In this document: positions 44,761-64,000 of the stretch, in pieces
Layout: every line of letters begins with the position of its first letter
Numbering within the stretch: the first letter of the stretch is position 1
Origin: Candidatus Omnitrophota bacterium
GTDB taxonomy: Bacteria > Omnitrophota > Gorgyraeia > Gygaellales > Profunditerraquicolaceae
Length of the DNA stretch: 64,000 nucleotides
Direction of reading: 5' to 3'
Assembly: GCA_003598135.1 (NCBI GenBank)
Contig: QZKA01000024.1
Location: 619-64,618 of the forward strand
Made by a program: the position numbers and the translations under genes
Notes under the pieces: generated by a model
Databases searched by the model: none
Seen by the model: only the letters and a program-made list of their open reading frames with translations
Told to the model about the DNA's origin: nothing

Positions 44761-44939
44761 TTATCCGCCTCGCCTATTAACATAACTGGTATACCGTTTA
44801 CGATGGAATACTTTTTCCCGCACTTTTTGCAGACAATTTTCGCCTTAACCATACCCACATCCGACTTGCAATCAGGACAGGAAAGGATATCAAGCAACAA
44901 ATTGTCAGCTACTGTTTTATTTTTTTGTTTTTTCGACAT
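44757..44939 (-). CDS. Trm112/YcaR-like zinc-ribbon protein
   Basis: [10 protein letters not shown]...[18 protein letters not shown]. The start could equally be 44957 or 44993. Confidence 0.6.
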
Positions 44940-45255: not shown

Positions 45256-45287
45256 CGCTATCCTACCTCGTTTAAAATGACGCTCGG

Positions 45288-47013: not shown

Positions 47014-47175
47014 TTACCGCCTGCCCTTAGCCTTCCTTCGCTTTCGCTCGCTGGGCTTTTCATAGTGCTTGCGGTCTCTGACTTCCCTTAAAATACCTTC
47101 CTGCTCAATTTGTTTTTTGAAACGGCGCATCGCCGCCTCAAAAGAATCGCCTTTTCTGATCTCAATCTGCGACAT
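47014..47175 (-). CDS. rpsU: 30S ribosomal protein S21
   Basis: The 53-aa ORF was translated by hand from the sequence: MSQIEIRKGDSFEAAMRRFKKQIEQEGILREVRDRKHYEKPSERKRRKAKGRR. At <60 aa it is absent from the ORF track. Confidence 0.85.
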   Translation of the reverse strand: MSQIEIRKGDSFEAAMRRFKKQIEQEGILREVRDRKHYEKPSERKRRKAKGRR

Positions 47176-47277
47176 CTAATCACCATCCTCCTCATCTAGA
47201 ATTTCTTAAACTATATCATTAATTTTAGCTGGAGTCAATCGTTTTAGGAGAAGTATTAATGTAGAAATTCAAAATTC

Positions 47278-48621
47278 CTATATCAGTGCTTTAAGCACTT
47301 TAGTGACCCTACTATTATTGGGAAGATTTTTTATATCCTTTACCGTAAAATGGCGTTTTGAAAAGTTATTTTGGATTTCTTCCAGGTCTTCTACAGTAAG
47401 TTCATCATTTGCGAATGGCATAAGCGACGGGGCTAATTCTTCTAAATCTCTGCCCTTTATGAGATGCCTATAATTAACATACTCTTCGGTGCCAGGTATA
47501 GGGGTATAAGGTAGTACCACCGGCAAACATCCTAATTTCCAAACGTCTATCAAAGTAAGGAGAATCGATTTCAAACTTTGTTCTGGCAGACCTATCAGAA
47601 CAAATAACCAAATGTCGTTTTCATAACGCATGGTTTTATGGCAAAAATAACCTTCTTCCTTAAATAATTTTACCACCTTCTCAAAATAAGAAAGTTTTAG
47701 TTTCTTATGAAACCTGTGCTGCAAATTAGAATCGCTGCTTTCTAAAGCCAAGCCTATATAGCTAACTCCGCTTAAACGCAATTTTCTAATAATCTCAGGA
47801 TAAATTAAACGTGGATCGAAGCCCTCGGGGATCTGGATAGAAAGATCTAGTTCCAATTCTATAATCCTATCCAGTAATTTTTCAAAATACTGTTTTGCAT
47901 CCTGTAAAATATTTGACTCCCAAAATACTATTTTCCTAATGCCGCTACTAACGCGCAACTGCAACTCAGCGATAACATCTCCTATCGGACGGTGCGTAAT
48001 AATTTTACCTTCGACCTTCGGGACTGCACAGTAGCTGCAGTTGTTACAACAACCGCGAGTGGTTTTTATTATTGCGTATTTATATTCCCTTTCTTTCATT
48101 AACTCCATAGCGGGCGGCAAATCGCTGGCTCCTTTAAATTGTCCGATAATAACATTATCTGCCTTTGATCTCTTGGCATGTTCGGGAGCAAGAGTTGGAT
48201 AAATTCCTCCTATGGTAACAGGGATATCAGGATATAACTTTTTACAGATCTCTACTACCTTGTGGACGCCCTCCCAATAAAAAGTCAAGGATGAACCTAC
48301 GTAGATTTCATCGGGTTTCTTAATTTTTTTTAGCTCAGTATTAAAAAACGAATAAGGCTTACCAATATGATAACGCTTTTTAAATATTTTCTTACTCCCC
48401 ATACCACATCTTTTTTTATCAACATACCTACCTGGCTCCTTATAAGGATGGTCTTCTCCTATATATTTATACATCCCCTCTAGAAAATCAAAAAAGCATA
48501 CCCGGCAACCTTGATTTTTTAAAAAAGCCCCGATTTTTAATAATCCTGTGTTGTAGTCAAAGTTTGCGTTTGGGCGACTATCTAACAAAGGGGGATTTAT
48601 TAGTAGTATTTCTTTAGTCAT
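47278..48621 (-). CDS. B12-binding-domain radical SAM protein (class B)
   Basis: N-terminal cobalamin-binding Rossmann domain (ILLINPPL...) and a radical-SAM core (TTRGCCNNCSYCAVP). Confidence 0.8.
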   Translation of the reverse strand: MTKEILLINPPLLDSRPNANFDYNTGLLKIGAFLKNQGCRVCFFDFLEGMYKYIGEDHPYKEPGRYVDKKRCGMGSKKIFKKRYHIGKPYSFFNTELKKIKKPDEIYVGSSLTFYWEGVHKVVEICKKLYPDIPVTIGGIYPTLAPEHAKRSKADNVIIGQFKGASDLPPAMELMKEREYKYAIIKTTRGCCNNCSYCAVPKVEGKIITHRPIGDVIAELQLRVSSGIRKIVFWESNILQDAKQYFEKLLDRIIELELDLSIQIPEGFDPRLIYPEIIRKLRLSGVSYIGLALESSDSNLQHRFHKKLKLSYFEKVVKLFKEEGYFCHKTMRYENDIWLFVLIGLPEQSLKSILLTLIDVWKLGCLPVVLPYTPIPGTEEYVNYRHLIKGRDLEELAPSLMPFANDELTVEDLEEIQNNFSKRHFTVKDIKNLPNNSRVTKVLKALI

Positions 48622-48648
48622 AGGAATGTTAGGCCTTACAGCCTTACT

Positions 48649-49629
48649 TTATAACGGTTTTATTTCAGAGTCTCCGTAATGAAACACATAATTTAAAAAT
48701 ACTCCTGGGCAATATTGCTCAATTTGACAATGGAAACATTTGCTTAATTTGTGGTACGAAAAAACCCTCGTGTACAAAAATATTGCATCAGATATATCGT
48801 TCTCTATTTTACATAATAAATTCGTTTTATAATTTTTGCTGCAAGAGACTGTCTTGGAAAATTTTTCTGGTGACAGCTCTTTTAAAACACACAAAGGAAA
48901 ACCGACAAAATTAAAATTAGAATTTCTAAATTTCCTTATTATTTCTTTATAAGAAGGTATTAAGCTTTTATAGGGAAGCTTGGCCTTATATTTAAGATGC
49001 AGTATCGAAAGGGGTACTTTTGTTACCTTAGCGCATAGACTAATTATTTTATCTACATGGTTTATATTTTGCTTAAGTAACAATGTGTGCAGATAAATTT
49101 TTACCCCTGGATGTGACCTTAGATTATCCACTCCGCTTCTCAGTAAATTATAACTCTTGTGATTAGCAACTATCTGATTATGCAATTTATTTATACCGTA
49201 TACCGGAATGGATATATTCCTTAATCCGTATCTTACTAGTTTTTCTGTAAATGACGAATTCGAAAAAAATTCTCCGGAAGATATGGTTTCAATTGTCTTA
49301 AAACCATACTTATTTGCAGATTCTAACAAATCCAAAATCCCCGGATAACGCAATGGTTCATTAGCGGCAAGAAGCAAGTGAGATATGTTATTTTTTCTAT
49401 TTAAATGCATCGAATTTTTTAGGCTGGCAAGAATTGAATCGTTATAACCTTTCTTAGGATCATCTTTATGAAAACAAAAAATGCAATAATTACAACATCC
49501 GGTCTGGAAACTTATAATATTATACTTCTTATTACACCCGAGCCCCTTTAATAAATGAAGCTGTTTATCGAATGGGGCAGTAAAAATACTTAAAAGGCCT
49601 TTATTATCTTGGTTAAAATCTAAATACAT
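48649..49629 (-). CDS. radical SAM protein, ~300-aa paralogous family member (copy 1)
   Basis: CCNYCIFC is a CxxxCxxC motif. The C-terminus reads CFHCQIEQYCPG...GDSEIKPL. Closest relative is the second domain of the 694-aa fusion (LHTLLLKQN). Confidence 0.75.
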   Translation of the reverse strand: MYLDFNQDNKGLLSIFTAPFDKQLHLLKGLGCNKKYNIISFQTGCCNYCIFCFHKDDPKKGYNDSILASLKNSMHLNRKNNISHLLLAANEPLRYPGILDLLESANKYGFKTIETISSGEFFSNSSFTEKLVRYGLRNISIPVYGINKLHNQIVANHKSYNLLRSGVDNLRSHPGVKIYLHTLLLKQNINHVDKIISLCAKVTKVPLSILHLKYKAKLPYKSLIPSYKEIIRKFRNSNFNFVGFPLCVLKELSPEKFSKTVSCSKNYKTNLLCKIENDISDAIFLYTRVFSYHKLSKCFHCQIEQYCPGVFLNYVFHYGDSEIKPL

Positions 49630-49641
49630 ACATTCTAATTT

Positions 49642-50784
49642 TTAAAAATACGTTTGACTGATTTTTCCAAAAATTAACAAATTTATTATAGGAAATTTAA
49701 CTAATACCGTAATGAAGGCGCCTAAAAATATAAAGGGCGCCAACGGCAAAGTTTTATATATCTCTATTGTTTCCGATGAACGATTTCTCAATAAGTCCGT
49801 TCTAACTTCATTAATTTGATCTTGAGTTAAGCCATCAGGATAGAGTTTACCAATTTTTTTGAAACCAAATTTCAAAATTGACTCATCAGTAAGCTGTAAC
49901 CTATCCGGCAAGTTTGCAACCGGCACCTCTTCTATTATATCATTTCTTAAAGAAAGCAATTTCCGGAGAGAATAAAAAAGCACAAAAAAGTAAGTAAAAT
50001 TCTTTAAGTACACAATAAAACTAAGAATCGCACTTGATCCGAAAATAATGAAAGAATTAACTAGAAGGCAAATCATTAAAAAACTTGAAAAAACAAGAAT
50101 GGATACATGTTTCAATAGGGTTTTATTGAATGTTCTATACAACAAAAGCGGCATTAAATAGCTCAACATTGACAAAGAAGAATCCAATTTTAGTTGAGGA
50201 AAATTCATATTAAGCACAACCAACTGAATCAACATAATAAAAGTAAGGTAACTCAACACAAACCTTAAACATTTAAATATTCTCTTTTTGATATATTTAA
50301 AAATATTTTTTAAGGAAAACAAAAAAACGTCATAAAAACTGCGAGAGCCGCTCTGTAATACCTTATTTTTAATAAAAACAACTACTTTCGTGAAATAAAC
50401 AGCTAACAAGAAAATAAAAAGCAACACAAAGACATTTGTTAAGAAAACAATTATGGGATAAAGCGGCAAAATTTTCTGAAAGGGATTTACTTTTAAAAGC
50501 ACAAAAAATGAAAACATAATAAAAAGCTTAGAATCTCCGGCAGCCCAGAATCCAAAATACCAGATTAAAAAGGCGACCAAAGTTATTAACGCGGCGTTTA
50601 TAATCACAAAAGAAAGAAAATGGAAACTCAAATACTTGAACAACAGCAAATACATAAAACTTATAAATGAAAAAAATATGCCTACGATTACCAAATTGTT
50701 CTTAATTTTTGAATATCTGATGTCGCTATACGAACTAAACAAACCGATGATCAAAAATATTAAAAAATAAATAAAATTTTCCAT
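49642..50784 (-). CDS. polytopic membrane protein with a split prepilin-peptidase (A24/TadV-like) aspartyl-protease signature
   Basis: SYSDIRYSKIKNN parallels the D(L/I)RxxxIPN motif, WAAGDSKLFIM parallels GxGDVKL, and the C-terminal TLPLAPFIFLGAF parallels PFGPFLALGA. A ~200-aa multi-TM insertion sits between the motifs. Confidence 0.55.
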   Translation of the reverse strand: MENFIYFLIFLIIGLFSSYSDIRYSKIKNNLVIVGIFFSFISFMYLLLFKYLSFHFLSFVIINAALITLVAFLIWYFGFWAAGDSKLFIMFSFFVLLKVNPFQKILPLYPIIVFLTNVFVLLFIFLLAVYFTKVVVFIKNKVLQSGSRSFYDVFLFSLKNIFKYIKKRIFKCLRFVLSYLTFIMLIQLVVLNMNFPQLKLDSSLSMLSYLMPLLLYRTFNKTLLKHVSILVFSSFLMICLLVNSFIIFGSSAILSFIVYLKNFTYFFVLFYSLRKLLSLRNDIIEEVPVANLPDRLQLTDESILKFGFKKIGKLYPDGLTQDQINEVRTDLLRNRSSETIEIYKTLPLAPFIFLGAFITVLVKFPIINLLIFGKISQTYF

Positions 50785-50829
50785 TTAAGATTTAATGTTT
50801 CTTGCAGCTAATTTTGCGTTTCGGTCCGG

Positions 50830-51807
50830 TTAACGAGTAGCATGAATTCTTCTTATAATTACATCGGGATTACAAAAAATGGGATAGAGTTCTTTGCTTC
50901 CGTAAATATTGATATATTCTTTTTGGATTCCCGCACAAATTCTATTGGCCGAACAATGGGCGCAACACTCAACTTTAATTCTAAATTTCGTAGGCTTCAC
51001 CTGCCTTAATTTATCCGTCCTTTTTTTACTTATAAATGAACAAATATAAAGTTCATTCTTGACTATTTTCCTGGTTTCAGACGAAAGCTCTTCAAAGCCT
51101 TGCATATAACATAATGGAACTCGCTCAATTCTCATTGTCCTCTCATGCGTTCTCAGCAATTCAACAGTTTTCTTCAACTCCAGCTCGATATCTGTATACC
51201 TTGCTACAATCCATTGGTTATTTACTACCCTACTATTAATTTCACCATCCGCCTTCCCCGGGTCGAGATTATTATAAACAAAATGTTTTATACCAGGAAA
51301 AGCCTTAATGAAAAATTTCGCAGTGTTAGACAGATTTTTACAATTAAGCGTATTTATAGTACTATTGAGCGCCACATGGAATCCTACTCTCAATGAGTTC
51401 TCTAGCCCTTTTATTGCCTTTTTAAAATGGCCTTTCTTTTGAGATAATTTGTCTGCGATGCTGCTGCTATCGGAATGAATCGAAATATTTATATCCCTTA
51501 AACCAGCCTTAAAAAGTTTTTTAGTTAAGCGAGGGTCCTCCAGTTTGCAACCATTCGTTATGATCCTGCTTGCAATGCCGTTTTTTTGAATAAATGATAT
51601 TACTTCCGGCAAAAAGCTTACCAATGTCGGTTCTCCGCCAGTAAGAATAATTTCAGTGATGTTCTGTTTTTTTAAAGCGATAATTTTGTTTTTTATTTCA
51701 CCTAAGCCATAATTTTTTTTAAATTGGGGGTTAGAACAAAATAAACATTCATTATTACATTCCCGGGTAATCTGAAGATAAGCTGCTTTTCTAGACCTTG
51801 GGCTCAT
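50830..51807 (-). CDS. radical SAM protein, paralogous family member (copy 2)
   Basis: CNNECLFC, GGEPTL, ISIHSDS, ERVPLCYMQGFEE and the C-terminal CCAHCSANRICAG. Confidence 0.75.
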   Translation of the reverse strand: MSPRSRKAAYLQITRECNNECLFCSNPQFKKNYGLGEIKNKIIALKKQNITEIILTGGEPTLVSFLPEVISFIQKNGIASRIITNGCKLEDPRLTKKLFKAGLRDINISIHSDSSSIADKLSQKKGHFKKAIKGLENSLRVGFHVALNSTINTLNCKNLSNTAKFFIKAFPGIKHFVYNNLDPGKADGEINSRVVNNQWIVARYTDIELELKKTVELLRTHERTMRIERVPLCYMQGFEELSSETRKIVKNELYICSFISKKRTDKLRQVKPTKFRIKVECCAHCSANRICAGIQKEYINIYGSKELYPIFCNPDVIIRRIHATR

Positions 51808-51819
51808 CGGAGGCGTAGT

Positions 51820-52746
51820 TTATTTAAAAGTAAATAATAAAGGTTTCTCGTTTTTGATTTTACCCACCTCTTTATCGTTAAGAAAAACGGAAATGGTTTT
51901 TTTACCAAGAATAATGTTATTTCCGTTCTCAAGTCTATTATACGCACAAAGATAATTTCGATCTTTCTCAAAGCCGTGGTTTTGATTTATGCTTTTATAT
52001 ATGAAATTATAACGGGCGCTTCCTGCTGACATATCAACACTATTAAAAAAAAATGTTTTTCCGTTATTCAAAACAAGTACAGGAAGCTTTAAAAAAAACT
52101 CAATGTATTCCCGAATTTCAGTTTCCGAAACACAAATCGAATTTAGGACTTTTTGCGCATACTTTTTTGACTCATTACACGTATAAGAACATGGAAAATG
52201 TGAAATTAGCGCCCCAAAACGAGAGCCGGGGAATGCGTGTAAATTGTTTAAGTAAAATGAAGGCGTTCCTTTGGTATTCTCAAATGCACTAGATATTAAT
52301 TTTATTGATGGAGAATTTGTATTTTGTTTAAAGAAATTTATGCAGCATTGTGGGTATCCTAATAAATGGCCTATGGTTTCATCAACCATAGAGAAAAACT
52401 TTCTTCCTGACGAATATATACCTTTTATTCTTTTATCTTCCTGCTCTTTTAAAGCCTTAGCAAGTTTTGGTAATTTCGATGCGTAAAATATTATTTGGCC
52501 GCCATGGCTATGTAAAGGTGCCGCCCTTAACATCTTTTTTGTTCTTTTGATTTTATAATCGGAATGGGTTATATATATTCCGTTTTTCTCATAAATTTTT
52601 TTTATTCCTTTAAATTGCCCATGGTCGATTATGCTTCTCTGTGTAGGCTTAATACCATTTCTCAATGCCAAATACTCAAAATTAATATTTTCAATAACTT
52701 TGATGGCTTTCAATATATGTTGCGTATCGATTTTAACTCTACTCAT
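51820..52746 (-). CDS. hypothetical Cys-motif protein (308 aa) embedded in the rSAM cluster
   Basis: Motifs HLLGYPQCC and HFPCSYTC. No recognisable family. Confidence 0.4.
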   Translation of the reverse strand: MSRVKIDTQHILKAIKVIENINFEYLALRNGIKPTQRSIIDHGQFKGIKKIYEKNGIYITHSDYKIKRTKKMLRAAPLHSHGGQIIFYASKLPKLAKALKEQEDKRIKGIYSSGRKFFSMVDETIGHLLGYPQCCINFFKQNTNSPSIKLISSAFENTKGTPSFYLNNLHAFPGSRFGALISHFPCSYTCNESKKYAQKVLNSICVSETEIREYIEFFLKLPVLVLNNGKTFFFNSVDMSAGSARYNFIYKSINQNHGFEKDRNYLCAYNRLENGNNIILGKKTISVFLNDKEVGKIKNEKPLLFTFK

Positions 52747-53663
52747 TTGATCGGGGCGAGCTCAAGCCAGCCTATCTTTTCAGCATACGTTACATCAATC
52801 CCGCTGCATAATTTGTAGTGCCTGCAAGGTGAGCAAATCGGTGTTTTTGTAGTAGCTGAACTACGGTGGAGCATTGTCTTTTCTTTATTTTTAATATAGT
52901 ACGGTGTTTCTGGAATCCCTACATAATTCTCGTAACCACCCATTAGGCAAAATGGCATAGTTTCTATCTTAATGGGCAGCTCTTTTTTGTCGCCATACGA
53001 ACGCTTTAGTTTGTCAATCGCTTTTTTAAATTCTTTCGCTAACTCTGAGTATGAAACAAAGAGCTGATTAAAAAATTTATCTGCATTTCCTGCATACATG
53101 AGGGTGTTCAGTATTATACAATCGATTTTTTCGAAAGCCAGCAACATCTTAATAAGAAAATAAATATTTTTATAATTTAGCTTGGTAAGCGTAGAACATG
53201 TATTTACCTTTAACCGAAAAATATCTTTTAAGGCAACTATATTCTTCAATCCTTGGACGGTTTGCGCATATCCATTGGGAGTACGAGTTAAAGCTTCATG
53301 AATTTTTTTTGAGCTTCCATGGATAGAAATATTGACTTCTGTTAAGCCTGCTTTGACGAGCTCATCGACATAGCTACCGTAACTCAGCAATCTTCCGTTT
53401 GTTTGAAGGCAAATGTGTTTATATCCTTTTTGTTTCGCTAATTTAATAAAATTAGTTAAATTTTTATTAAGCGTGGGTTCGCATGTAGTAAAAAGCATTG
53501 AGTCAAGCGATTCGATCTTTTTACTTTGTTTTAAAAACCCTTCGGGTGTAAGCCAAGCAGCGTTTTTAAAAGACAGGTCCGGTTTGCGATCAGAACAAAA
53601 AACACAATTATTATTACAGGCAGCGCTTGTAAATATGGTAAGCCGGTCATTATCCATACGCAC
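52743..53663 (-). CDS. radical SAM protein, paralogous family member (copy 3)
   Basis: CNNNCVFC, ISIHGSSKKIHEALT, ETMPFCLMGGYEN and CSPCRHYKLCSG. Confidence 0.75.
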   Translation of the reverse strand: MRMDNDRLTIFTSAACNNNCVFCSDRKPDLSFKNAAWLTPEGFLKQSKKIESLDSMLFTTCEPTLNKNLTNFIKLAKQKGYKHICLQTNGRLLSYGSYVDELVKAGLTEVNISIHGSSKKIHEALTRTPNGYAQTVQGLKNIVALKDIFRLKVNTCSTLTKLNYKNIYFLIKMLLAFEKIDCIILNTLMYAGNADKFFNQLFVSYSELAKEFKKAIDKLKRSYGDKKELPIKIETMPFCLMGGYENYVGIPETPYYIKNKEKTMLHRSSATTKTPICSPCRHYKLCSGIDVTYAEKIGWLELAPIK

Positions 53664-53698
53664 CCTATGTTACTATGCTTCTACTTTCTCAGCCGTAT

Positions 53699-55783
53699 TC
53701 AAGGTAAACTGGTTAATGGCTTAAATTCGCCATCGCCATACAGCTTTAAATATAGGTCGGGAATCCCCATACAAAAATTATTTAATTTGCATTGACTGCA
53801 TTTAGTCAAAAAAGATATTTTATCTTCCATATACGTTCCTTCATTACAAAAAATTAACCTGTTCATTGAAATTTTAACGAAAGGATTGTTTTCATAAAAA
53901 TTACCTGGTTGAAGCAATTCGTCTTCAGTATAACCGGATATGGCACTTTTTAAATAAAATTTTGGCAACACACAATACGGTATCCTGATTTTAGCACGGT
54001 CCATAACCTTGTTATGCTTTAATATTTTCGCAATGTCAGAGAATTTAGGAGCAAATTCATAGTAATCGCGCTGGTCGCTATTTCTTGGTCTTACCATGCA
54101 AAAATTTATCGGAAATATTCTAAAGTAAGAAGCAATAAAATCGTATATTTTGGATATAAATAAATAGTTTTGCTTCAAAAGCAAAGAGTGCAACATTATT
54201 TCTACCTTAGGAAATCTCTGCAAATTCCTGATTGCGTTTAATAAGATTTTGAAGCTCCCACGGGAACCAGTAATTAAATCGTGAGATTCGTCATTATATC
54301 CATAAATGGACAATTGGACTTTGTCAACACCGGAAGCACAGAACTTACGGGTAAAATTAAAATTAATCAATCTTTCGCCAGAAGTGGCCAGCCTAATTTC
54401 TCTATAGCCTAATTCTTTCGCATATTTTATTACTCTTAATAAGCCCGGGTAATTTAAGGGTTCATTGCCTCCTATCCTTAGCGTATCTATTTTCAAGCTA
54501 TTGTGGATATAGGATAAATCTGATTCTATCTTATTCGGCTTTACCACAATTTCCTTATTTTTTTTGTTTTTCAGAGAACGCGAGCAAAAAATACAGCCTT
54601 TTTTACATGGAGAAGGAATTTCGCAAGAGACAAAACAGTTTTTAGAAGATTTTTCTGGTATGGGCACTAAGACTTTATATCCGTTGTTTTTAATGCGGCC
54701 GCACTGCATTCCATCGCAGGTAGCGGTAAATTTACATAAAGCGCATCTAGGGCTTTTTACAAAATAACGGTTTTTTATAAAAAAATCTAGAAAGTCAAAT
54801 ATATCTATATCATGGCCTTTATTAACTATCGGCTGACTTTCAAGCATCCTTTCAGAAATCTCGTTGTTTTTTATGCAATACGGCATATTTTTTGGCTTGA
54901 GGATACCGTCACGTTTAAATAACGATATGTCATCGCAAAAACTTTTCAAAACACAATAATCGCACCGAGTGCCTTTGCATCTTAAAGTAATATTATTTTT
55001 AAGATATTTCTCAAATTCTGCTTTTCTCCCCATTACTTCATAAAATAATTTTGCAGGGCTCTGTATTAAGTCTTCATAACCTTCGAAATATTGAGCGGGA
55101 AAACGGTTTGTGAAAATATTTAATTTTCTGTTTTTTGATAATTCAAATGCCTTTTTCAAATAGCTTAATTCTTTTTCAATGTCATAAAAAAGGATACTTC
55201 GATTATTCCACGCCCTACCAAAAGGCACTATTTGTAATAAATCAAATTCGCTTACGCCTATTCCTATAAAAAACTTTATAATACTTTCAAGCCTCCTTAC
55301 ATTTAATTTATTAACAACGATATCTTGGCTTACAATTAGCTTAGGAGACTTTAGCGCATTAATTAATCCCGCTAACGACTGAAAATAAGAGCCAGCTACT
55401 TGCGTTATACGATCATGGGGTTTTTCCTCGCATTCATGAATAGAAAAAGTTATCTCTTTTAAGCCGGAGGATATTGTATCCTGTAAAAAACTCTTATATG
55501 CAAACATCCTCCCGTTAGTTATAACCTGTATATGGCTATATCCTATCTTATTTGCGAATCTAACAATCTCTTGAAATCTTGGATGCAAAGATGGCTCTCC
55601 CCCGCTCAAAACTGCCCTTCTTATATTTTCTTTCCGCCCCTTCATTAATTCAGATTTCACTAGAGAGAACTCGATACAACTTCCGTCTTGTGATTCATAA
55701 TCCAAACAAAAAAGGCATCTATTATTGCACGCCTTAGTTAATCGGACCCAATATCTTTTTTCCTCCGGAGAACTTTTTGACAT
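53699..55783 (-). CDS. tandem double radical SAM protein (two complete rSAM domains, 694 aa)
   Basis: Domain 1 has CNNRCLFC, GGEPSL and SIHECEEKPHD. The linker carries CDYCVLKSFC and CALCKFTATCDGMQCG. Domain 2 has CKKGCIFC, GGNEPL and the C-terminal CSQCKLNNFCMG. Confidence 0.75.
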   Translation of the reverse strand: MSKSSPEEKRYWVRLTKACNNRCLFCLDYESQDGSCIEFSLVKSELMKGRKENIRRAVLSGGEPSLHPRFQEIVRFANKIGYSHIQVITNGRMFAYKSFLQDTISSGLKEITFSIHECEEKPHDRITQVAGSYFQSLAGLINALKSPKLIVSQDIVVNKLNVRRLESIIKFFIGIGVSEFDLLQIVPFGRAWNNRSILFYDIEKELSYLKKAFELSKNRKLNIFTNRFPAQYFEGYEDLIQSPAKLFYEVMGRKAEFEKYLKNNITLRCKGTRCDYCVLKSFCDDISLFKRDGILKPKNMPYCIKNNEISERMLESQPIVNKGHDIDIFDFLDFFIKNRYFVKSPRCALCKFTATCDGMQCGRIKNNGYKVLVPIPEKSSKNCFVSCEIPSPCKKGCIFCSRSLKNKKNKEIVVKPNKIESDLSYIHNSLKIDTLRIGGNEPLNYPGLLRVIKYAKELGYREIRLATSGERLINFNFTRKFCASGVDKVQLSIYGYNDESHDLITGSRGSFKILLNAIRNLQRFPKVEIMLHSLLLKQNYLFISKIYDFIASYFRIFPINFCMVRPRNSDQRDYYEFAPKFSDIAKILKHNKVMDRAKIRIPYCVLPKFYLKSAISGYTEDELLQPGNFYENNPFVKISMNRLIFCNEGTYMEDKISFLTKCSQCKLNNFCMGIPDLYLKLYGDGEFKPLTSLP

Positions 55784-55793
55784 AATGGCGTTA

Positions 55794-56720
55794 TTAATTC
55801 TCCTCCTTCTTAAACTCTTTCTGGCCGTATTTTCTTAGGTATTCTTGCCAAATGCCCCAGCAATTACTACTCACTGGACAATTCTGACATTCTTTAACCT
55901 TCACATAGGTAATGATTTTATTTTTTGATACCGCATAATACTCCCTGTACTTTGTTACTGATGAATGGGGTAAAAAATTTTCTTCATTTCTGGAATCACC
56001 GTATCGAATCGAGTTATTTTTAAAGTATTTATGAAAATAGCAGCCAACCGGTGGGTTAAGCAAGCACCATGAGAAACCAAGGCCTTGTCCTTTATCTAAG
56101 GCACGTACTATATAAGGCGCTGCTTCTGATATACGCGGCGTGAGGCTTTTAAATATAGATTCATTTTTCGTGATTATATACATAAATTCCGCCCTCTTTA
56201 TCTGATATGCAAGTAAGATTTTACCAATAGACGGCAAATATTTGTAATTTTGCTTGGTAATCGTAGTATTGGTTCCTATCTGATTGAACCCTAATTTTTT
56301 TAAATTTTCTATCCCTTTTACTAATTGCTGAAAACTCCCTGCTGTATCGGTAAGATAATCGTGCACCTTGGGGCTATGGCCGTGCAAAGAAAAATCTATT
56401 TCTGATACACCGGATTTTATCAATTGCCGGGCAAAATCGTCGTACGCCAACATTCTGCCGTTTGTACTTATTCTCACTTTTTTAAAACCGATTTTTTTTC
56501 CGTATGCAATCAACTCGCAAATGTCCTTCCTTATAGTCGGTTCTCCTCCGATTAGATTAAGCCAGCTCTTCCCGATCTTTTTTGCTGCTAAAATTTCACT
56601 TTTAACTTCTTCTGTCGTTTTCTCGGACAGATGACGGTTCTCCCGGTCATAACAAAATAGGCAACCGTTATTACATTTAAATCCAAATACAATAGCGGCA
56701 TGATCGCTTATGTTGTTCAT
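55794..56720 (-). CDS. radical SAM protein, paralogous family member (copy 4)
   Basis: CNNGCLFC, IGGEPTI, FSLHGHSPKVHDYLT and CQNCPVSSNCWG. Confidence 0.75.
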   Translation of the reverse strand: MNNISDHAAIVFGFKCNNGCLFCYDRENRHLSEKTTEEVKSEILAAKKIGKSWLNLIGGEPTIRKDICELIAYGKKIGFKKVRISTNGRMLAYDDFARQLIKSGVSEIDFSLHGHSPKVHDYLTDTAGSFQQLVKGIENLKKLGFNQIGTNTTITKQNYKYLPSIGKILLAYQIKRAEFMYIITKNESIFKSLTPRISEAAPYIVRALDKGQGLGFSWCLLNPPVGCYFHKYFKNNSIRYGDSRNEENFLPHSSVTKYREYYAVSKNKIITYVKVKECQNCPVSSNCWGIWQEYLRKYGQKEFKKEEN

Positions 56721-57649
56721 ATAGCAAACTCCTTGTCTTTAAATTCAAGGTAATATCTTTTAAATATCCCGCCGCAGTTACTACTCATAGAACAGCTTTC
56801 GCATACATGGATCTTAATCCTATTACGAGTCGGATAACAACTCAAAGTTTCCTTTAAAAATATATTTTTAGAACTTTTCCGCTGCTCAACTGTTATTCTA
56901 GGGGACCAGTGAAAATCATTAGTGTAAAGTTCATAACCCTTTAGCACGCAAAGAGGAAGCCCAAAAAATCTAATAATTAGAGCTTTTTTATTCGCATATT
57001 CAACTAATCGAGGGACTGCCGTTTTTATTTCTTTTAAAGGAACAACTAATTTTTTAAAATTAGCCAATCCATTTCCTTCCGGGGCGAAGTTAGAAAAAAG
57101 TATTTGTTTGACTTTTTTAAAATTGCTGACCAAATCGATTACCTTCTCAAGTGAGCTAACATTATATTTAGTAATAACTGTGTTAATGAACAAAAAAATG
57201 TCCCCCTTTGACCTTTCAATATTTTCTAATGCGTTCATACATCTGCTGAAGCTTTCTCTGTTGGCGGTGTGAAGATTATGAAGCGTTCCGCTATGACCGT
57301 GCAGAGAAAAACAAATTTCATCAACATAAAAAAGAGTTTTATCGCAAAACCTTTTTAAGGAAAATAAGCCTCCGTTAGAACTACAATACACTGTATACAT
57401 TAACTGCTTTGCGGATTGGATTATTTCTACAAAACTCGGGTGAAAAGTCGGCTCTCCCCCTGTTAATGTAATGTGGTTTAAGCCTTTTTCGGCAAAATAT
57501 TTTAATTTATTTTGTATTATATTGAAGTCAACAAAATGGTTATTACGTTTATTTAATTGGCCTGCCTCGGAACAAAAAATGCAGTTATTGACACATTTAT
57601 ACGATATGTGAAATTCTAATCTCTTTGCCTTAGATCTATTTCCCGTCAT
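56717..57649 (-). CDS. radical SAM protein, paralogous family member (copy 5)
   Basis: CVNNCIFC, TGGEPTF, FSLHGHSGTLHNL, GLPLCVLKGYEL and CESCSMSSNCGG. Confidence 0.75.
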   Translation of the reverse strand: MTGNRSKAKRLEFHISYKCVNNCIFCSEAGQLNKRNNHFVDFNIIQNKLKYFAEKGLNHITLTGGEPTFHPSFVEIIQSAKQLMYTVYCSSNGGLFSLKRFCDKTLFYVDEICFSLHGHSGTLHNLHTANRESFSRCMNALENIERSKGDIFLFINTVITKYNVSSLEKVIDLVSNFKKVKQILFSNFAPEGNGLANFKKLVVPLKEIKTAVPRLVEYANKKALIIRFFGLPLCVLKGYELYTNDFHWSPRITVEQRKSSKNIFLKETLSCYPTRNRIKIHVCESCSMSSNCGGIFKRYYLEFKDKEFAI

Positions 57650-57651
57650 CT

Positions 57652-59070
57652 TTATCCATAAAGTAAGTAAGATAGTTGGAAGTCAATATTCCGGTATTCA
57701 TTCTTATTCTTATCAACTAATCCTGAATATCTAGCCAAAAAACGACCATCAAGAAAGCAATTTGAATAAATGTATCTTTCACATCTTGTTTTCGCAGATA
57801 ACGTAATAAAATTTCTGTCTTCTCCCACGGGGCACATTTTTTTTATTAACTTGAGTTCCCTTGGATATAGCTTTTCGGGTTCTTCATTGAATATTTTTTG
57901 AAACAAATTTTTATCAATTCTCCCTTCTTCCTGAATAGAGTTTATTATATTGAAACGCATCTCTAAATCCTTTGATAATTGGAACGCGAAGAGTTTAGGG
58001 AAAATATTTCGTTTGAGATTTCTTTCATAATCCGGATAGTGTAGGTCTTTTACGTAGTACATCTTTTTAAACGCATGTGAGATTGCCCCCCACCCTAATC
58101 CCAAAACCGAACTATTAAATTTATACATGTCAAAAAATTGTAAATTTTCTTTATTTGTACTGTAATCCTCCAACGCATAAGGATACGCACTGCTAATCAT
58201 CTGGTACGCTAAATCGAGCATCTTTTTACAGCGGATTACATCACTAAAGTTTAATGTAAGGCCGTTTTTAGTAAACCTTGTAAAAACATCTGGACAAAAA
58301 GAGTTAACGTGGATAGTATCTGGTTTCAGTTTTAAAATATTTTTTAACGAGATTTGGAACGATTCAATTGATTGATAAGGAACCCCTGCCATCAAATCAA
58401 CATTGATATGGCGTATCTTCAATTTTCTACAATTTTGATATAGCTGAAAAACTAATTTTGCATTTTGCGGCCTTTGGAGTTTCTTGAGGACATTTTTATC
58501 CAGCGATTGAACTCCGATAGTTACTTTGTTTACCCCATAATCCTTAAGTATTTTTACTTTCTCATAAGAGCACGTGTATGGGCTAAGTTCAACCATAAAT
58601 TGCTCTTTATTCTCCACATTATAATTTTCTGAAATCATGACCATGAGTCTTTTGAGATTGGCAGATGATAATATTGAAGGCGTACCGCCACCTATATAAA
58701 CGGTTTTTGCTTCCAATTTCTTTGGAAAATCCAATAATTTTATTTCTTTTTCCAGTGCATTAAGAAAGCGGGAATGTGACTGATCATTAGTCTGGGGGAA
58801 TGATAGGGTGTTACAATAAAAACACTTGCTGACACAAAATGGAATGTGGACATATATACCGAATCTATCGTGGCTACCCTTCTCTTTAAGGATGGATGTC
58901 GCAACAGATCGCCAAGATTTTTTTACTTCCTCTAGGCGTATTGATCTTCTTTGGAGTCTCAGTACCGAATACGGCGTTCCTAAGCCATAAAAAATCAAAT
59001 CCCTGGTTATGCACTTAAACAGCTCAAGCTTCTTATTAACTTCATTACTTAAAAGGGACAAGTTCGGCAT
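57652..59070 (-). CDS. HemN/HemW-like radical SAM protein (coproporphyrinogen-III-oxidase family)
   Basis: YVHIPFCVSKCFYC, GGGTPS and VTIGVQSLD. Confidence 0.75.
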   Translation of the reverse strand: MPNLSLLSNEVNKKLELFKCITRDLIFYGLGTPYSVLRLQRRSIRLEEVKKSWRSVATSILKEKGSHDRFGIYVHIPFCVSKCFYCNTLSFPQTNDQSHSRFLNALEKEIKLLDFPKKLEAKTVYIGGGTPSILSSANLKRLMVMISENYNVENKEQFMVELSPYTCSYEKVKILKDYGVNKVTIGVQSLDKNVLKKLQRPQNAKLVFQLYQNCRKLKIRHINVDLMAGVPYQSIESFQISLKNILKLKPDTIHVNSFCPDVFTRFTKNGLTLNFSDVIRCKKMLDLAYQMISSAYPYALEDYSTNKENLQFFDMYKFNSSVLGLGWGAISHAFKKMYYVKDLHYPDYERNLKRNIFPKLFAFQLSKDLEMRFNIINSIQEEGRIDKNLFQKIFNEEPEKLYPRELKLIKKMCPVGEDRNFITLSAKTRCERYIYSNCFLDGRFLARYSGLVDKNKNEYRNIDFQLSYLLYG

Positions 59071-59971
59071 CCGAATATTTTAAGAAATATTTTTCGTAAA
59101 CGCCTCCGCATATGCTATTCTTTGAGCATTTTTTACACTTGCGGGTTTTTATTCTTCCGATATCGATTTTAAAATTGTTTTCGATATATTTCCCCGGCTC
59201 ATTCCATAATCGTATTTTTCCATTATGATCTTTCTGATTATCAATTTTGAAGGGTTCCCATAAATCATAGGAATACTGATATCTATCTCCTAAAATACAC
59301 ATAGGAATACCGGAAAACCTGATTTTAATATTTTTGGACTCGCAAAAGTTTATTGCTTTTATTACGTGTGGGGAAAGAACAGAAAATTTAGGAAAAATCT
59401 CGTAAAATTTTCGGCTCCCCTCTCCTGTAGGTACAATAGACATACATTGATATTCGTTTATTCCAAAATTATGAATCAACTCAGCTATGTTGGTTAAAAA
59501 TTTATAATTAAGACTGGTTATCGCAGTGGTTGCTTGAAGTCTGCCCTTATAATATTTCTTCAGATTTTTCATTCCTTGAAAGACAGATTTAAAAGCTGCC
59601 GGGTTACGGGTATTAATTGAATGAATTTTATTATTATGCCCGTGTATAGAAATCATAATTTCGTCGAGATAAGGCAATGTCTTGATGCAAAACTCATAAG
59701 AGCTGAACATAATTGCATTTGAAATAATAAATGTATTATAATGTAATGCCTTTGACAATTTTAATATTTCGGGAAAATGAGAATGTAATGTTGGCTCCCC
59801 TCCTACAAAGTGTACAAGATTTGCCCCTTTAGACCTTTCAGCTACTAATATATTCTTAATTTTCTCAAATGAGAGCTCAGAGCCATCAAGGTTATTTCTT
59901 TCGCTGCAAAAAATACATCTATTACAGCATTTTTTTACAATAAAAAGGTCAATTCGTCTGGTGTGTACCAT
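59045..59971 (-). CDS. radical SAM protein, paralogous family member (copy 6)
   Basis: CNRCIFC, VGGEPTL, ISIHGHNNKIHS, GIPMCILGDRYQ and CKKCSKNSICGG. Confidence 0.75.
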   Translation of the reverse strand: MVHTRRIDLFIVKKCCNRCIFCSERNNLDGSELSFEKIKNILVAERSKGANLVHFVGGEPTLHSHFPEILKLSKALHYNTFIISNAIMFSSYEFCIKTLPYLDEIMISIHGHNNKIHSINTRNPAAFKSVFQGMKNLKKYYKGRLQATTAITSLNYKFLTNIAELIHNFGINEYQCMSIVPTGEGSRKFYEIFPKFSVLSPHVIKAINFCESKNIKIRFSGIPMCILGDRYQYSYDLWEPFKIDNQKDHNGKIRLWNEPGKYIENNFKIDIGRIKTRKCKKCSKNSICGGVYEKYFLKYSDAELVPFK

Positions 59972-60905
59972 ATTCGTAAGGAAGAACTGAACAATACATA
60001 CTAATCTCTTTGGCCCTGGTAGAATTTAGAAAGGTCAATCCCAGGGCAGTAGGATAAATACAACTGTGAAATGTCGCATAAAGATTATTTAATCCGTAGA
60101 TAAATTTATTTATACTCAAAAGGGGAACTTTCAACTTCTTGATATCTGACCATCTTTCTTTCGGATTAAAATTGCACTGGAATTCTCTGGTTTCATAAAT
60201 TAAATAATTCTTCAGAAAAGCTATCGTTCCTGGTTTTTTTAATTTGACCGCAGCAAGGTAAAATACATTTTTCTTTGGTGAATTTTTGAAAAATACGCTA
60301 AATTTAGATTTGAAGTCGTTATGCAAAAAGCTAAATTTGTTTAATTCTTGTAGCGCATGATACCTAAAATAAAGCTTAATTGACATTTGATTACTATTCG
60401 GGCAAAGCACTAATGCAAGCGCACAGATTTCATATCGTAAATATAAACCGACCATATTCGGATCGTAGCCCGATATCAAACACAACTTATACAATATATC
60501 GTTTTTCAAAAAAGGGCCGCATTCAACTTCAATTTTTAAAGTGGGGGCCCTGTCTGATTCAGCCCACTCAAACCCCAAAGTGACTGGAAAAGCTTTAATT
60601 ACATAGATTGCTTTTTCCGCTTGTTGTCGCAATTCCCCATCGTAACACAATCGTATTATTGAACGTATTTTATTGAGAAATTCGACTCTCTCCCCTGAAT
60701 CATTAATACTAAATCTCAAAAGATGTTTAGGCCTTCTATTAATTTTAAAAGAAAAATCAAACTTAAAAAAATCAAGACTACGCATTTGGTAATCATCAAA
60801 GAGGATTTTGATAATACATGGGAAATTTTTCTTTTCATAAATATTATTTTCTCTTGCAATTTGTTCTATAATATTTCTGTAACAAGTAAGGATGTTAGTG
60901 CTCAT
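59949..60905 (-). CDS. hypothetical protein (318 aa) homologous to the C-terminal domain of the 624-aa rSAM fusion
   Basis: KFDFSFKINRRPKHLLRFSINDSGERVEF aligns with KFDFSISASDSNARSLRFSYNDFGEKKEF at residues ~330-360 of ORF 61951..63825. Confidence 0.45.
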   Translation of the reverse strand: MSTNILTCYRNIIEQIARENNIYEKKNFPCIIKILFDDYQMRSLDFFKFDFSFKINRRPKHLLRFSINDSGERVEFLNKIRSIIRLCYDGELRQQAEKAIYVIKAFPVTLGFEWAESDRAPTLKIEVECGPFLKNDILYKLCLISGYDPNMVGLYLRYEICALALVLCPNSNQMSIKLYFRYHALQELNKFSFLHNDFKSKFSVFFKNSPKKNVFYLAAVKLKKPGTIAFLKNYLIYETREFQCNFNPKERWSDIKKLKVPLLSINKFIYGLNNLYATFHSCIYPTALGLTFLNSTRAKEISMYCSVLPYEYGTHQTN

Positions 60906-60913
60906 TTAAAAGA

Positions 60914-63825: not shown

Positions 63826-64000
63826 CAGTTTAAAGAAGAAATGAACTCGGTAAGCTTATAATCTATATTAATCGTGGATTTTAAGACTCTGAAAGGAGTA
63901 CATTTTTCGACAATTTTACCGAGATCTGCCTGCATAATCAAGCGTTTTATTTTTTTTAAACTTCTAATTGAATTAACGTTTCCGAGTTTAAATTTTTTCG
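63826..64000 (-). CDS. 3' end of an upstream minus-strand gene in the same operon (partial, unknown function)
   Basis: The open frame ends ...KLTEFISSLN, and its stop overlaps the start of the following gene (atga). The gene begins beyond the window. Confidence 0.4.

What the first reader, a model, noticed from the sequence alone, without database searches (positions are those of the whole stretch)
53699..55783. Single polypeptide with two complete radical SAM domains and an extra Cys-rich linker
The 694-aa ORF contains two full CxxxCxxC/GGEP cores joined by a linker carrying CDYCVLKSFC and CALCKFTATCDGMQCG, which may add further Fe-S sites. Domain 2 is most similar to ORF 48649. Domain 1 has lost the conserved Cys of the PxCxxxGYE motif. 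Tandem rSAM fusions are uncommon and suggest coupled consecutive reactions.
Basis: seen in the sequence. Interest (0 to 1): 0.65.

Follow-up and report, generated by a model that had tools for sequence, protein, structure and literature searches.

The report
Fused double radical-SAM peptide maturase
A real, evolutionarily conserved gene that joins two different radical-SAM enzyme domains (about five predicted iron-sulfur clusters) in one protein, sitting in an unusually large His-Xaa-Ser-repeat peptide-modification cluster of an Omnitrophota bacterium; the Cys-rich "linker" is simply the normal tail of the first enzyme.

Summary
The 694-aa ORF (53699..55783, minus strand) is real and uninterrupted. 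It has two complete radical SAM cores. It is not an assembly artefact: more than 25 full-length homologues (36-81% identity) come from independent assemblies, and the junction DNA aligns without gaps to a sister genome.

The "Cys-rich linker" is not a linker. It is two tandem C-terminal auxiliary-cluster modules that define the domain-1 family, and standalone ~380-aa members carry them too. Eighteen Cys are conserved in 22 fused homologues (15 invariant, 3 in at least 90%), which predicts five [4Fe-4S] clusters.

The two halves are old paralogues (25% identity). Domain 2 is marginally closest to ORF 48649.

The gene lies in a low-GC, ~17-kb operon of HxsC-like radical SAM paralogues. In the syntenic sister genome this operon starts with HxsD, HxsB and an HxsA-like (His-Gly/Ser-Ser)n peptide. 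It is therefore an expanded His-Xaa-Ser system.

The domain-1 family is widespread (at least 511 genome loci). It is recurrently fused to different partners, giving proteins with up to four radical SAM domains.

Most likely function: a bifunctional maturase that performs two radical steps on the HxS-repeat peptide. I rate it a new variant of a known kind, of moderate interest.

The parts
53699..55783 (-). Whole 694-aa ORF: a tandem fusion of two HxsC-like radical SAM domains
   Evidence: Uninterrupted ORF. PF04055 matches in two stretches. Full-length homologues exist in independent assemblies. AF2 model has pLDDT 86 and shows two partial TIM barrels.
54998..55783 (-). Domain 1 radical SAM core (aa 1-262), with CNNRCLFC at nt 55706-55729 and the GGEP motif
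   Evidence: A local HMM of this region scores 438 bits. The best NCBIfam stretch for HxsC and HxsC4 lies here.
54887..54997 (-). Auxiliary module 1a (aa 263-299), with Cys C269, C274, C277 and C283. It sits where the paralogues' CxxCx5C motif lies. The upstream PxC Cys is replaced by Ala, and C269 is the likely replacement ligand.
   Evidence: All four Cys are invariant in 22 homologues. The segment aligns with the paralogues' motif. The paralogue auxiliary-module HMM hits aa 227-285 (i-E 0.0019).
54653..54886 (-). Auxiliary module 1b (aa 300-377), a second complete copy of the PxC...CxxCx5CxG...P module, with Cys C303, C347, C350 and C356
   Evidence: The four Cys are invariant. HMM hit at aa 299-366 (i-E 1.4e-4), and i-E 5.9e-10 in homologue P0050. 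BLAST of aa 300-358 against the ORF 61951 tail gives E 0.017. The module is present in standalone ~380-aa homologues.
53702..54652 (-). Domain 2 (aa 378-694), a 'type A' HxsC-like radical SAM domain. It carries CKKGCIFC (nt 54584-54607), GGNEP, and its own auxiliary module with C604, C662, C665 and C671 (nt 53771-53974).
   Evidence: The closest in-window paralogue is ORF 48649 (104 bits, 27% identity). Orthologues were seen only in the fused state in the 87 loci examined.
47278..64000 (-). The surrounding low-GC operon (34% GC against 46% elsewhere). It holds 12 radical SAM domains in 11 genes, plus a truncated twelfth gene at the window edge: seven single-domain HxsC-like paralogues, this fusion, a B12-radical SAM, a HemN-like enzyme and a PapB/HxsB-like core. 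It also holds a DUF483 protein, an A24-like peptidase and two ABBA-fold domains. It runs off the window end.
   Evidence: The syntenic loci L001 and L087 show that the missing start encodes HxsD, an HxsD-like protein, HxsB and an HxsA-like peptide.

Best explanation
The ORF is a genuine, vertically conserved fusion of two different HxsC-like radical SAM maturase domains.

Domain 1 (aa 1-377) belongs to a widespread family. That family pairs a radical SAM core with two tandem C-terminal auxiliary-cluster modules: C269/274/277/283 and C303/347/350/356. Domain 2 (aa 378-694) is a distinct paralogue with one auxiliary module (C604/662/665/671). With the two SAM-binding clusters, this predicts five [4Fe-4S] clusters in one polypeptide.

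The gene is part of an expanded His-Xaa-Ser (Hxs) system. In that system, HxsB, HxsD and a battery of HxsC-like enzymes process a small HxsA-like precursor. The precursor ends in (His-Gly/Ser-Ser)n followed by Trp.

The most likely mechanism is as follows. Each domain reductively cleaves SAM and performs its own radical modification on the repeat peptide. The auxiliary clusters would serve substrate binding or electron transfer. Fusion would keep two consecutive, or obligatorily paired, steps together.

Shown here: the ORF's integrity, the domain architecture, Cys conservation, conservation of the fusion, and the genomic association with HxsA, HxsB and HxsD.

Inferred only: the number of clusters, catalytic activity of both halves, the peptide substrate, and the order and chemistry of the steps.
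For: Integrity of the ORF:
- Searches show an uninterrupted ORF.
- One search finds more than 25 homologues with 96-100% coverage, including an 81%-identical protein from a Candidatus Omnitrophota assembly.
- One search shows a gapless alignment of the junction DNA.

Two radical SAM domains:
- Supported.
- The AF2 model (pLDDT 86) has two beta/alpha barrels. Its Foldseek hits are SkfB, BlsE, MoaA, GDGT-MAS and viperin, and each hit covers only about one half of the model (TM-score about 0.25-0.3 when normalised to the query).

Cys conservation:
- Fifteen of the 18 proposed ligand Cys are invariant in 22 fused homologues; the three of the first SAM cluster are present in at least 90%.

The tail belongs to the family:
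- Standalone ~380-aa proteins carry both auxiliary modules.
- Myxococcota versions have a 100-300-aa insertion between the two modules.

Hxs context:
- In the sister genome the same operon begins with HxsD (59.9 bits, cutoff 50), an HxsD-like protein (63, cutoff 41), HxsB (481, cutoff 370) and an 85-aa peptide ending ...GGHSSHGSHSSHGSHGQW.
- The Moranbacteria locus has HxsB (538 bits) and HxsA4 (59.4, cutoff 55).
- An HxS-repeat small ORF lies within 10 kb of the domain-1 gene in 40 of 87 loci.

Functional coupling:
- Domain 1 is fused in different lineages to non-orthologous HxsC-like domains (types A, B and C), in both orders. It is also fused to HemN-like, DUF483, ABBA-like and kinase-like domains.
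- Some proteins carry 3-4 radical SAM domains.

Experimental precedent:
- In the canonical HXS system, HxsB and HxsC are required for HxsA maturation. Mutating either the SAM-cluster Cys or the second-cluster Cys impairs it (PMC13128918).
Against: - No biochemical data exist for this family.
- None of the domains reaches the curated cutoffs for HxsC (147.6 against 267.9) or HxsC4 (160.9 against 500). Equivalence to characterised HxsC is therefore by resemblance only.
- HxsA, HxsB and HxsD are not visible in the window itself, because the cluster runs off the end at 64000.
- Domain 2 has GNEP instead of GGEP.
- The relative orientation of the two domains is not confidently predicted (pTM 0.64).
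- Some loci with the domain-1 family show glycosyltransferases and no HxsA within 10 kb.
Confidence: 0.65

Rival explanations
1. Assembly or frameshift artefact: two adjacent ~380-aa and ~310-aa genes were merged by a sequencing error at the junction.
For: The junction contains A5, A6 and T6 homopolymer runs. In many other genomes the domain-1 family gene is a separate ~380-aa ORF followed within a few bases by another radical SAM gene.
Against: - The same 694-aa frame exists in an 81%-identical protein from a different assembly. The junction DNA aligns without gaps over 210 nt despite about 30 substitutions.
- A 100%-identical copy lies on an independent JGI contig (P0001).
- Type A fusions of 691-733 aa also occur in Moranbacteria.
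- There is no Met or other obvious start between aa 359 and the second CxxxCxxC.
Confidence: 0.02
2. Only one half is catalytic. The other would be a degenerate radical SAM fold retained as a scaffold, a peptide-binding module or an electron conduit for its partner.
For: Domain 2 deviates at the GGE motif (GNEP; the position varies N/T/G/D in type A orthologues). The halves are only 25% identical. Pseudo-SAM proteins are known in related families (NCBIfam lists a pseudo-SAM/SPASM family among the weak hits).
Against: Both CxxxCxxC triads, and the Glu-Pro of the GGE motif, are conserved across 22 homologues (second triad, G439, E441 and P442 invariant; first triad and E63 in at least 90%). Both halves score as full-length PF04055 / HxsC-like domains.
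Confidence: 0.15
3. The enzyme does not act on the HxS-repeat peptide. Instead it acts on a small molecule, cofactor, lipid or glycan, and the Hxs genes are merely neighbours.
For: The closest solved structures include MoaA, BlsE, viperin and GDGT-MAS, which have small-molecule or lipid substrates. One Omnitrophota locus (L004) has glycosyltransferase and U32 genes interleaved and no HxsA within 10 kb. A B12-radical SAM gene in the operon weakly resembles a lipid-biosynthesis family.
Against: - An HxS-repeat ORF co-occurs in 40 of 87 loci, although many contigs are truncated.
- The best family matches are HxsC and HxsC4.
- SkfB, a RiPP maturase, is the top fold hit.
- HxsB and HxsD pass curated cutoffs in the same operon of the sister genome.
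- The cluster encodes RiPP-like ABBA-fold domains and a leader-peptidase-like protease.
Confidence: 0.12

Closest known systems
HxsC, His-Xaa-Ser system radical SAM maturase (NCBIfam TIGR03977) of the canonical HxsD-B-C-A antiphage system (PMC13128918)
   Same: It is among the best family matches for both halves and for all seven single-domain paralogues. It shares the radical SAM core plus a C-terminal second Cys cluster. It is associated with HxsB, HxsD and a His-Xaa-Ser repeat protein.
   Different: - Scores fall below the curated cutoff (147.6 against 267.9).
- The canonical system has four genes with a single HxsC and is 99.7% in Pseudomonadota. Here there are 12-14 radical SAM domains in an Omnitrophota genome.
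- The precursor is a short (85-93 aa) peptide with a hydrophobic segment and a (HGS)n-Trp tail. [quoted passage not shown]
- Two HxsC-like domains are fused, and domain 1 has a duplicated auxiliary module.
HxsC4 / HxsA3 / HxsA4 / HxsD-like (NCBIfam NF038332, NF038309, NF038313, NF038315): curated 'rare' Hxs variants
   Same: The precursors in related loci hit HxsA3 and HxsA4. The Moranbacteria peptide passes the HxsA4 cutoff, and the HxsD-like protein passes its own cutoff. HxsC4 is the top model for most paralogues.
   Different: No window protein approaches the HxsC4 cutoff of 500 bits (best is 190.9). No curated model covers the domain-1 family or the fusion.
FbiC (fused CofG/CofH), the F0 synthase with two radical SAM domains (from my own knowledge; the phrase also occurs in a paper on production of an F420 precursor, PMC11917521, which I did not open)
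   Same: It is one polypeptide with two complete radical SAM domains. The domains also exist as separate genes in other organisms and act on consecutive steps of one pathway.
   Different: There is no specific sequence relationship: CofG and CofH are not among the listed best 25 of the 44 NCBIfam matches. FbiC acts on a small-molecule substrate and has no auxiliary clusters.
Twitch/SPASM-type radical SAM enzymes with C-terminal auxiliary clusters (SkfB 6efn, BlsE 7vob, MoaA 1tv7)
   Same: These are the top structural matches for the model (E 1e-10 to 1e-8). They share a partial TIM barrel followed by a Cys-rich C-terminal auxiliary-cluster module.
   Different: There is no Pfam SPASM hit. The Cys spacing (PxC...CxxCx5C) is family-specific. 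Domain 1 has two such modules in tandem, the first using a Cx4Cx2Cx5C arrangement.
Three-residue-motif radical SAM cyclophane synthases acting on His (HtkB, HaaB; PMC11499958)
   Same: They provide chemical precedent for radical SAM crosslinking on His-X-X motifs in repeat peptides. HxsB in this cluster shows weak similarity to cyclophane-forming SPASM maturases.
   Different: Those are SPASM enzymes related to HxsB, not to the HxsC-like domains fused here. No chemistry has been shown for this system.

Membership tests
Radical SAM superfamily (PF04055) | CxxxCxxC motif and a Pfam score above the gathering threshold, for each half | tested here: met
   Two motifs at aa 19-26 and 393-400. PF04055 scores 100.2 bits against 29.5, in two stretches. 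Both halves align over their full length with the single-domain paralogues.
HxsC (TIGR03977) | Score at or above the curated cutoff of 267.9 bits | tested here: not met
   147.6 bits summed over two stretches.
HxsC (TIGR03977) | Encoded in one cluster with HxsB, HxsD and a His-Xaa-Ser repeat protein | tested here: inconclusive
   This cannot be seen in the window, because the cluster is cut at 64000. It is met in the syntenic sister-genome locus L087: HxsD 59.9 (cutoff 50), HxsB 481 (cutoff 370), and an HxsA3-like peptide at 51.3 bits (below its cutoff of 65) with clear HxS repeats.
HxsC4 (NF038332) | Score at or above the curated cutoff of 500 bits | tested here: not met
   160.9 bits for the fusion. 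The best paralogue, ORF 52743, scores 190.9.
Canonical HXS antiphage system (PMC13128918) | [quoted passage not shown] | tested here: not met
   The operon has 12-14 radical SAM domains. The precursor is 85-93 aa with an (HGS)n tail and has no Pfam domain. Antiphage activity cannot be tested here. PADLOC gives only generic pVip-level radical SAM similarity.
SPASM domain radical SAM (PF13186) | A seven-Cys SPASM motif or a Pfam SPASM hit C-terminal to the core | tested here: not met
   There is no PF13186 hit at E <= 0.01 for the fusion or any HxsC-like paralogue. The auxiliary modules use PxC...CxxCx5C instead.
Twitch-type radical SAM (SkfB/BlsE/MoaA-like) | A single auxiliary [4Fe-4S] or [2Fe-2S] cluster in a short beta-hairpin/helix module after the barrel | tested here: inconclusive
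   The top Foldseek hits are SkfB, BlsE and MoaA, but the alignments mainly cover the barrel.
Domain-1 family (defined here; ~380 aa; no curated model) | Radical SAM core, then FP[A/P]xY in place of PxC, then Cx4-5Cx2Cx5C, then PxC...CxxCx5CxG...P | tested here: met
   All features are present and conserved in 22 fused homologues and in the standalone homologues inspected.
FbiC / CofGH two-domain radical SAM | Homology to CofG and CofH | tested here: not met
   No CofG, CofH or FbiC model appears among the listed best 25 of the 44 NCBIfam matches at E <= 0.01. The resemblance is architectural only.

The most novel reading that the evidence does not exclude
The fusion is one visible piece of an undescribed radical SAM 'assembly line'. 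In it, the domain-1 family acts as a hub that evolution has repeatedly welded to different tailoring enzymes: other HxsC-like domains in either order, and HemN-like, DUF483, ABBA-prenyltransferase-like and kinase-like domains, giving up to four radical SAM domains per protein. Together with HxsB/HxsD and a prepilin-peptidase-like protease, these enzymes would convert a short poly(His-Gly-Ser)-Trp peptide into a very heavily modified product. That product would be a new RiPP class, or a new kind of envelope or antiphage effector. The system is widespread in small-genome lineages (Omnitrophota, Patescibacteria/CPR, DPANN archaea) as well as in Elusimicrobia and Myxococcota.
Probability: 0.35. 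Interest if true: 0.78.

Novelty: new variant of a known kind. Interest (0 to 1): 0.52.

Why it matters
Proteins with two radical SAM domains are rare. Where they are understood (FbiC), they mark consecutive steps of one pathway. Here the fusion partners vary between lineages. This gives a Rosetta-stone map of which enzymes of a very large, uncharacterised radical SAM cluster work together.

The canonical four-gene HXS system was only recently shown to be an antiphage defence, and its chemistry is still unresolved (a +8 Da modification). The expanded (HGS)n variant has 12-14 radical SAM domains, two prenyltransferase-fold domains and a dedicated peptidase. It is found in at least 511 species-level genome loci, including CPR bacteria, DPANN archaea and a cultured Nannocystis strain.

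It offers many natural 'dissections' of the pathway and a tractable entry point for working out what Hxs enzymes do to His-Xaa-Ser repeats. A single polypeptide predicted to hold five [4Fe-4S] clusters would also interest Fe-S enzymologists.

Tried and rejected
1. Frameshift or merged genes: rejected on the basis of homologues and the gapless junction alignment.
2. 'Linker-specific Fe-S sites': rejected, because both Cys modules are present in standalone family members.
3. Recent internal duplication: rejected, because the halves are only 25% identical and each is closer to other paralogues.
4. Split genes as direct ancestors: in L004 and L006 the radical SAM gene downstream of the standalone domain-1 gene is not an orthologue of our domain 2. 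It matches ORF 50830 or ORF 55794 types instead. Type A domain 2 was found only in fused form in the 87 loci. Type B does have standalone orthologues.
5. A homologue search with domain 2 alone returned nothing at E <= 1e-10, although a 79%-identical homologue is known. I treat this as a failure of the word-index tool, not as evidence.
6. PADLOC gave only superfamily-level pVip similarity.
7. A precursor peptide inside the window: none was found. The only gap, 47013-47278, holds rpsU.
8. Cys-Cys distances in the AF2 model could not be measured, because no coordinates were provided.
9. Literature searches found no description of the expanded cluster or of the fusion.
Full report
**Observation**

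The ORF at 53699..55783 lies on the minus strand. It starts with ATG, encodes 694 aa and has no internal stop.

- It has two CxxxCxxC motifs: CNNRCLFC at aa 19-26 and CKKGCIFC at aa 393-400.
- It has two GGE-type motifs: SGGEP and GGNEP.
- It has three CxxCx5C motifs, at aa 274, 347 and 662.
- Pfam PF04055 matches in two separate stretches (E 1.9e-28).

**Anatomy**

I aligned the two halves with the seven ~308-aa single-domain paralogues of the same operon.

- Each paralogue is a radical SAM core followed by a C-terminal module: PxCxxxGYE ... CxxCx5CxG ... Y...G..E..P.
- Domain 2 (aa 378-694) has exactly this layout, with C604, C662, C665 and C671.
- Domain 1 differs in two ways. First, the PxC Cys is replaced (FPAQYFEGYE). 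Second, the module occurs twice.
  - Copy 1a keeps CxxCx5C (C274, C277, C283) and has an extra upstream Cys (C269).
  - Copy 1b (aa 300-377) is complete. It has MPYC303, C347, C350 and C356, plus the G...GY.VLVP tail.
- An HMM of the paralogue modules hits domain 1 twice: aa 227-285 (i-E 0.0019) and aa 299-366 (i-E 1.4e-4). It hits module 1b of homologue P0050 at 5.9e-10. BLAST also links aa 300-358 to the tail of ORF 61951.
- The real connector between the end of module 1b and the first strand of domain 2 is only about 10-18 residues long.

The 'Cys-rich linker' is therefore the normal, duplicated tail of domain 1.

**Is the fusion real?**

- A search of 5.8 billion proteins found more than 25 homologues of 669-733 aa covering 96-100% of the query at 36-81% identity. 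They come from Omnitrophota, Moranbacteria and unnamed metagenomes. There is also a 100%-identical fragment on an independent JGI contig.
- The 81%-identical protein lies in a fully syntenic operon of a Candidatus Omnitrophota assembly (L001/L087).
- The 210-nt junction aligns to that genome without any gap, despite about 30 substitutions.
- There is no internal start between M359 and the second SAM motif.

The artefact explanation is refuted for practical purposes.

**Conservation**

- In 22 fused homologues, these Cys are invariant: C269/274/277/283, C303/347/350/356, C393/397/400 and C604/662/665/671. C19/23/26 are present in at least 90%.
- C361, C383 and C387 are not conserved.
- This predicts two SAM clusters plus three auxiliary clusters, five [4Fe-4S] in all. 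That number is an inference.
- The AF2 model (pLDDT 86, pTM 0.64) shows two partial beta/alpha barrels.
- Its Foldseek hits are SkfB, BlsE, MoaA, GDGT-MAS and viperins, and each covers only about one half of the model (TM-score about 0.25-0.3 when normalised to the query). The profile search of PDB sequences agrees.

**Relationship of the halves**

- The halves are only 25% identical to each other. They are old paralogues, not a recent duplication.
- Domain 2 is closest to ORF 48649 (104 bits), barely ahead of ORF 55794 (102 bits). It shares the unusual xNEP and LH(S/T)LLLKQN motifs with ORF 48649.

**The domain-1 family**

- About 100 of the best hits are ~380-aa standalone proteins that cover aa 1-377, including both auxiliary modules.
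- A scan of one genome per GTDB species found at least 511 loci. They come from Omnitrophota, Patescibacteria (Moran-, Parcu-, Portnoy- and Saccharibacteria), Elusimicrobia, Spirochaetes, Planctomycetia, Myxococcota (including cultured Nannocystis radixulma), some Gammaproteobacteria MAGs, and DPANN archaea.
- An exhaustive HMMER search of 1.84 billion representatives gave 358 clusters at E <= 1e-30.
- Among the 81 non-redundant loci analysed (80 from this scan plus those fetched earlier), most genes are standalone. Myxococcota versions carry a 100-300-aa insertion between modules 1a and 1b. About six loci carry a second radical SAM domain.

**Recurrent fusion**

- The fused second domain falls into at least three non-orthologous types.
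  - Type A: ours, the sister genome, Moranbacteria and a few metagenomes.
  - Type B: CNAxCLFCNVP, found in most Omnitrophota fusions. It has standalone orthologues elsewhere.
  - Type C: P0023.
- Other architectures exist:
  - an HxsC-like domain placed N-terminal to domain 1;
  - HemN-like plus domain 1;
  - domain 1 plus DUF483;
  - domain 1 plus an ABBA-like domain;
  - domain 1 plus an APH-like kinase;
  - proteins with three radical SAM domains (1028-1070 aa) and with four (1318 aa).
- Several partner types (HemN-like, DUF483, ABBA fold) are also separate genes in the window's operon.

This is a Rosetta-stone pattern, with domain 1 as the common partner.

**Context**

- The gene sits in a minus-strand operon from 47278 to the window end, with tiny or overlapping gene junctions. 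Its GC content is 34%, against 46% for the rest of the window.
- The operon contains:
  - seven single-domain HxsC-like paralogues, one of which is fused to a C-terminal domain;
  - this fusion;
  - a B12-binding radical SAM enzyme;
  - a HemN-like radical SAM enzyme;
  - a PapB/HxsB-like radical SAM core;
  - a DUF483 protein;
  - a Peptidase_A24-like membrane protein.
- The best NCBIfam matches for the paralogues are HxsC and HxsC4, and all fall below the curated cutoffs.
- The window ends just before the start of the cluster.
- In the syntenic sister genome the missing part encodes HxsD (59.9, cutoff 50), an HxsD-like protein (63, cutoff 41), HxsB (481, cutoff 370), a 187-aa protein, and an 85-aa HxsA3/A4-like peptide ending GGHSSHGSHSSHGSHGQW.
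- A Moranbacteria locus has an HxsD-like protein, HxsB (538 bits), HxsA4 (59.4, cutoff 55...HGSHGSHGSHGSW), about 13 radical SAM genes, and two adjacent type A fusions.
- Across 87 loci, 40 contain a small ORF with a C-terminal (HGS)n repeat ending GQW, GSW or GGWC.
- The frequent co-occurring partners of domain 1 are the ORF 61951N-type and ORF 50830-type paralogues (48 of 81 loci each), the ORF 56717 type, and an A24-like peptidase.

**Comparison with what is known**

- The canonical HXS system (HxsD-B-C-A) was recently shown to be an antiphage defence. In it, HxsB and HxsC mature HxsA by N-terminal processing and a +8 Da change on SHRSS. Both Fe-S motifs of HxsC matter, and HxsC binds HxsD (PMC13128918).
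- That paper reports that 99.7% of systems are in Pseudomonadota and more than 99.8% have four genes.
- The cluster here is therefore a strongly expanded variant in different phyla, with a different, short (HGS)n precursor.
- NCBIfam curators have models for rare variants (HxsA3, HxsA4, HxsC4, HxsD-like). No model or paper that I could find covers the domain-1 family or the fusions.
- Two-domain radical SAM proteins are known (FbiC = CofG+CofH; my own knowledge), but they are unrelated in sequence.
- Radical SAM crosslinking at His in three-residue motifs (HtkB, HaaB; PMC11499958) is a chemical precedent for what Hxs enzymes might do. This link is speculative.

**Mechanism (best guess)**

Each half binds SAM at its own cluster and abstracts a hydrogen from the HxS-repeat peptide or an intermediate. 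The three auxiliary clusters would bind substrate or relay electrons. Fusion enforces 1:1 stoichiometry and proximity of two steps.

- Confidence that the ORF is a genuine two-domain enzyme of an Hxs-type cluster: about 0.9.
- Confidence in the specific mechanism: about 0.5.

**Verdict**

The fusion is real and suggests coupling. The 'linker' is misread, and the wider Hxs context was missed.

I rate this a new variant of a known kind. The fusion itself is of moderate interest. The expanded cluster around it is the more interesting object.

Noticed in passing
window 59949..60905 (-) and window 61951..~62937 (-; C-terminal half of the 624-aa ORF 61951..63825): These are two homologous domains (28.5% identity, E 2e-15) with no Pfam or NCBIfam hit. 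A shallow-MSA AF2 model (pLDDT 60, pTM 0.67) shows five alpha-alpha-beta-beta repeats. Its top 43 Foldseek PDB hits are all ABBA aromatic prenyltransferases, including the RiPP enzymes PagF, PirF, KgpF, LimF (a His geranyltransferase) and DciF. One of the two domains is fused to an HxsC-like radical SAM domain.
   Followed up: partly
window 49642..50784 (-); precursors at L001:762-1019 and L002:3079-3360: A 380-aa membrane protein resembles the type IV prepilin peptidase family A24 (24.5 bits against a cutoff of 26.5; AAGDSKL motif). An A24-like gene recurs in 35 of 81 related loci. The HxsA-like precursors have K(M/I/L)G followed by a hydrophobic stretch, which looks like a class III (prepilin-type) signal. 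Cleavage by this peptidase is an untested idea.
   Followed up: partly
window 51820..52746 (-): A DUF483 protein (29 bits against a cutoff of 25; motif GYPQCCINFF) sits inside the operon. In other organisms the same domain is fused C-terminally to the domain-1 family (P0041, P0138: YPECCIDFF / YPKCCIDFF).
   Followed up: partly
window 47278..64000 versus 1..47200: There is a sharp drop in GC content (0.341 against 0.459) exactly over the radical SAM operon. The edge is marked by rpsU at 47014..47175. The sister genome has the cluster at the same chromosomal site, also with lower GC (0.36-0.39 against 0.42-0.44). This suggests an old acquisition or a composition-biased island.
   Followed up: partly
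proteins P0129, P0130, P0133, P0139, P0163, P0124: The same family includes single polypeptides with three HxsC-like radical SAM domains (1028-1070 aa). One has four radical SAM domains (1318 aa). Another combines a kinase-like domain, a HemN-like domain and two HxsC-like domains (1391 aa).
   Followed up: partly
L002/L007 10001..14288 (Moranbacteria GCA_030679895.1): Two type A double-radical-SAM genes (691 and 733 aa) lie side by side in a CPR genome, within a cluster of about 13 radical SAM genes that follows the HxsD-like gene, HxsB and HxsA4. That is a large investment for a small genome.
   Followed up: partly
L054 (Nanoarchaeota MAG), L068 (Woesearchaeota MAG), L085 (Nannocystis radixulma NZ_JAQNDN010000027.1): The domain-1 family occurs in DPANN archaeal MAGs and in a cultured myxobacterium. 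The myxobacterium could serve as an experimental host.
   Followed up: no
window 63826..64000 (-): The last 175 bases appear to be the 3' end of another radical SAM gene, the homologue of the 309-aa gene in L001. The HxsA-like precursor gene should therefore lie just beyond the window.
   Followed up: partly
tool behaviour: The word-indexed homologue search with domain 2 alone (316 aa) returned no hit at E <= 1e-10. Yet full-length hits P0001 (100% identical) and P0002 (79% identical in this region) exist. Negative results from that tool should not be over-read.
   Followed up: no
window 35425..35495 (-): The only RNA gene detected in the window is tRNA-Gly(CCC). No other Rfam family reached its gathering score.
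   Followed up: yes
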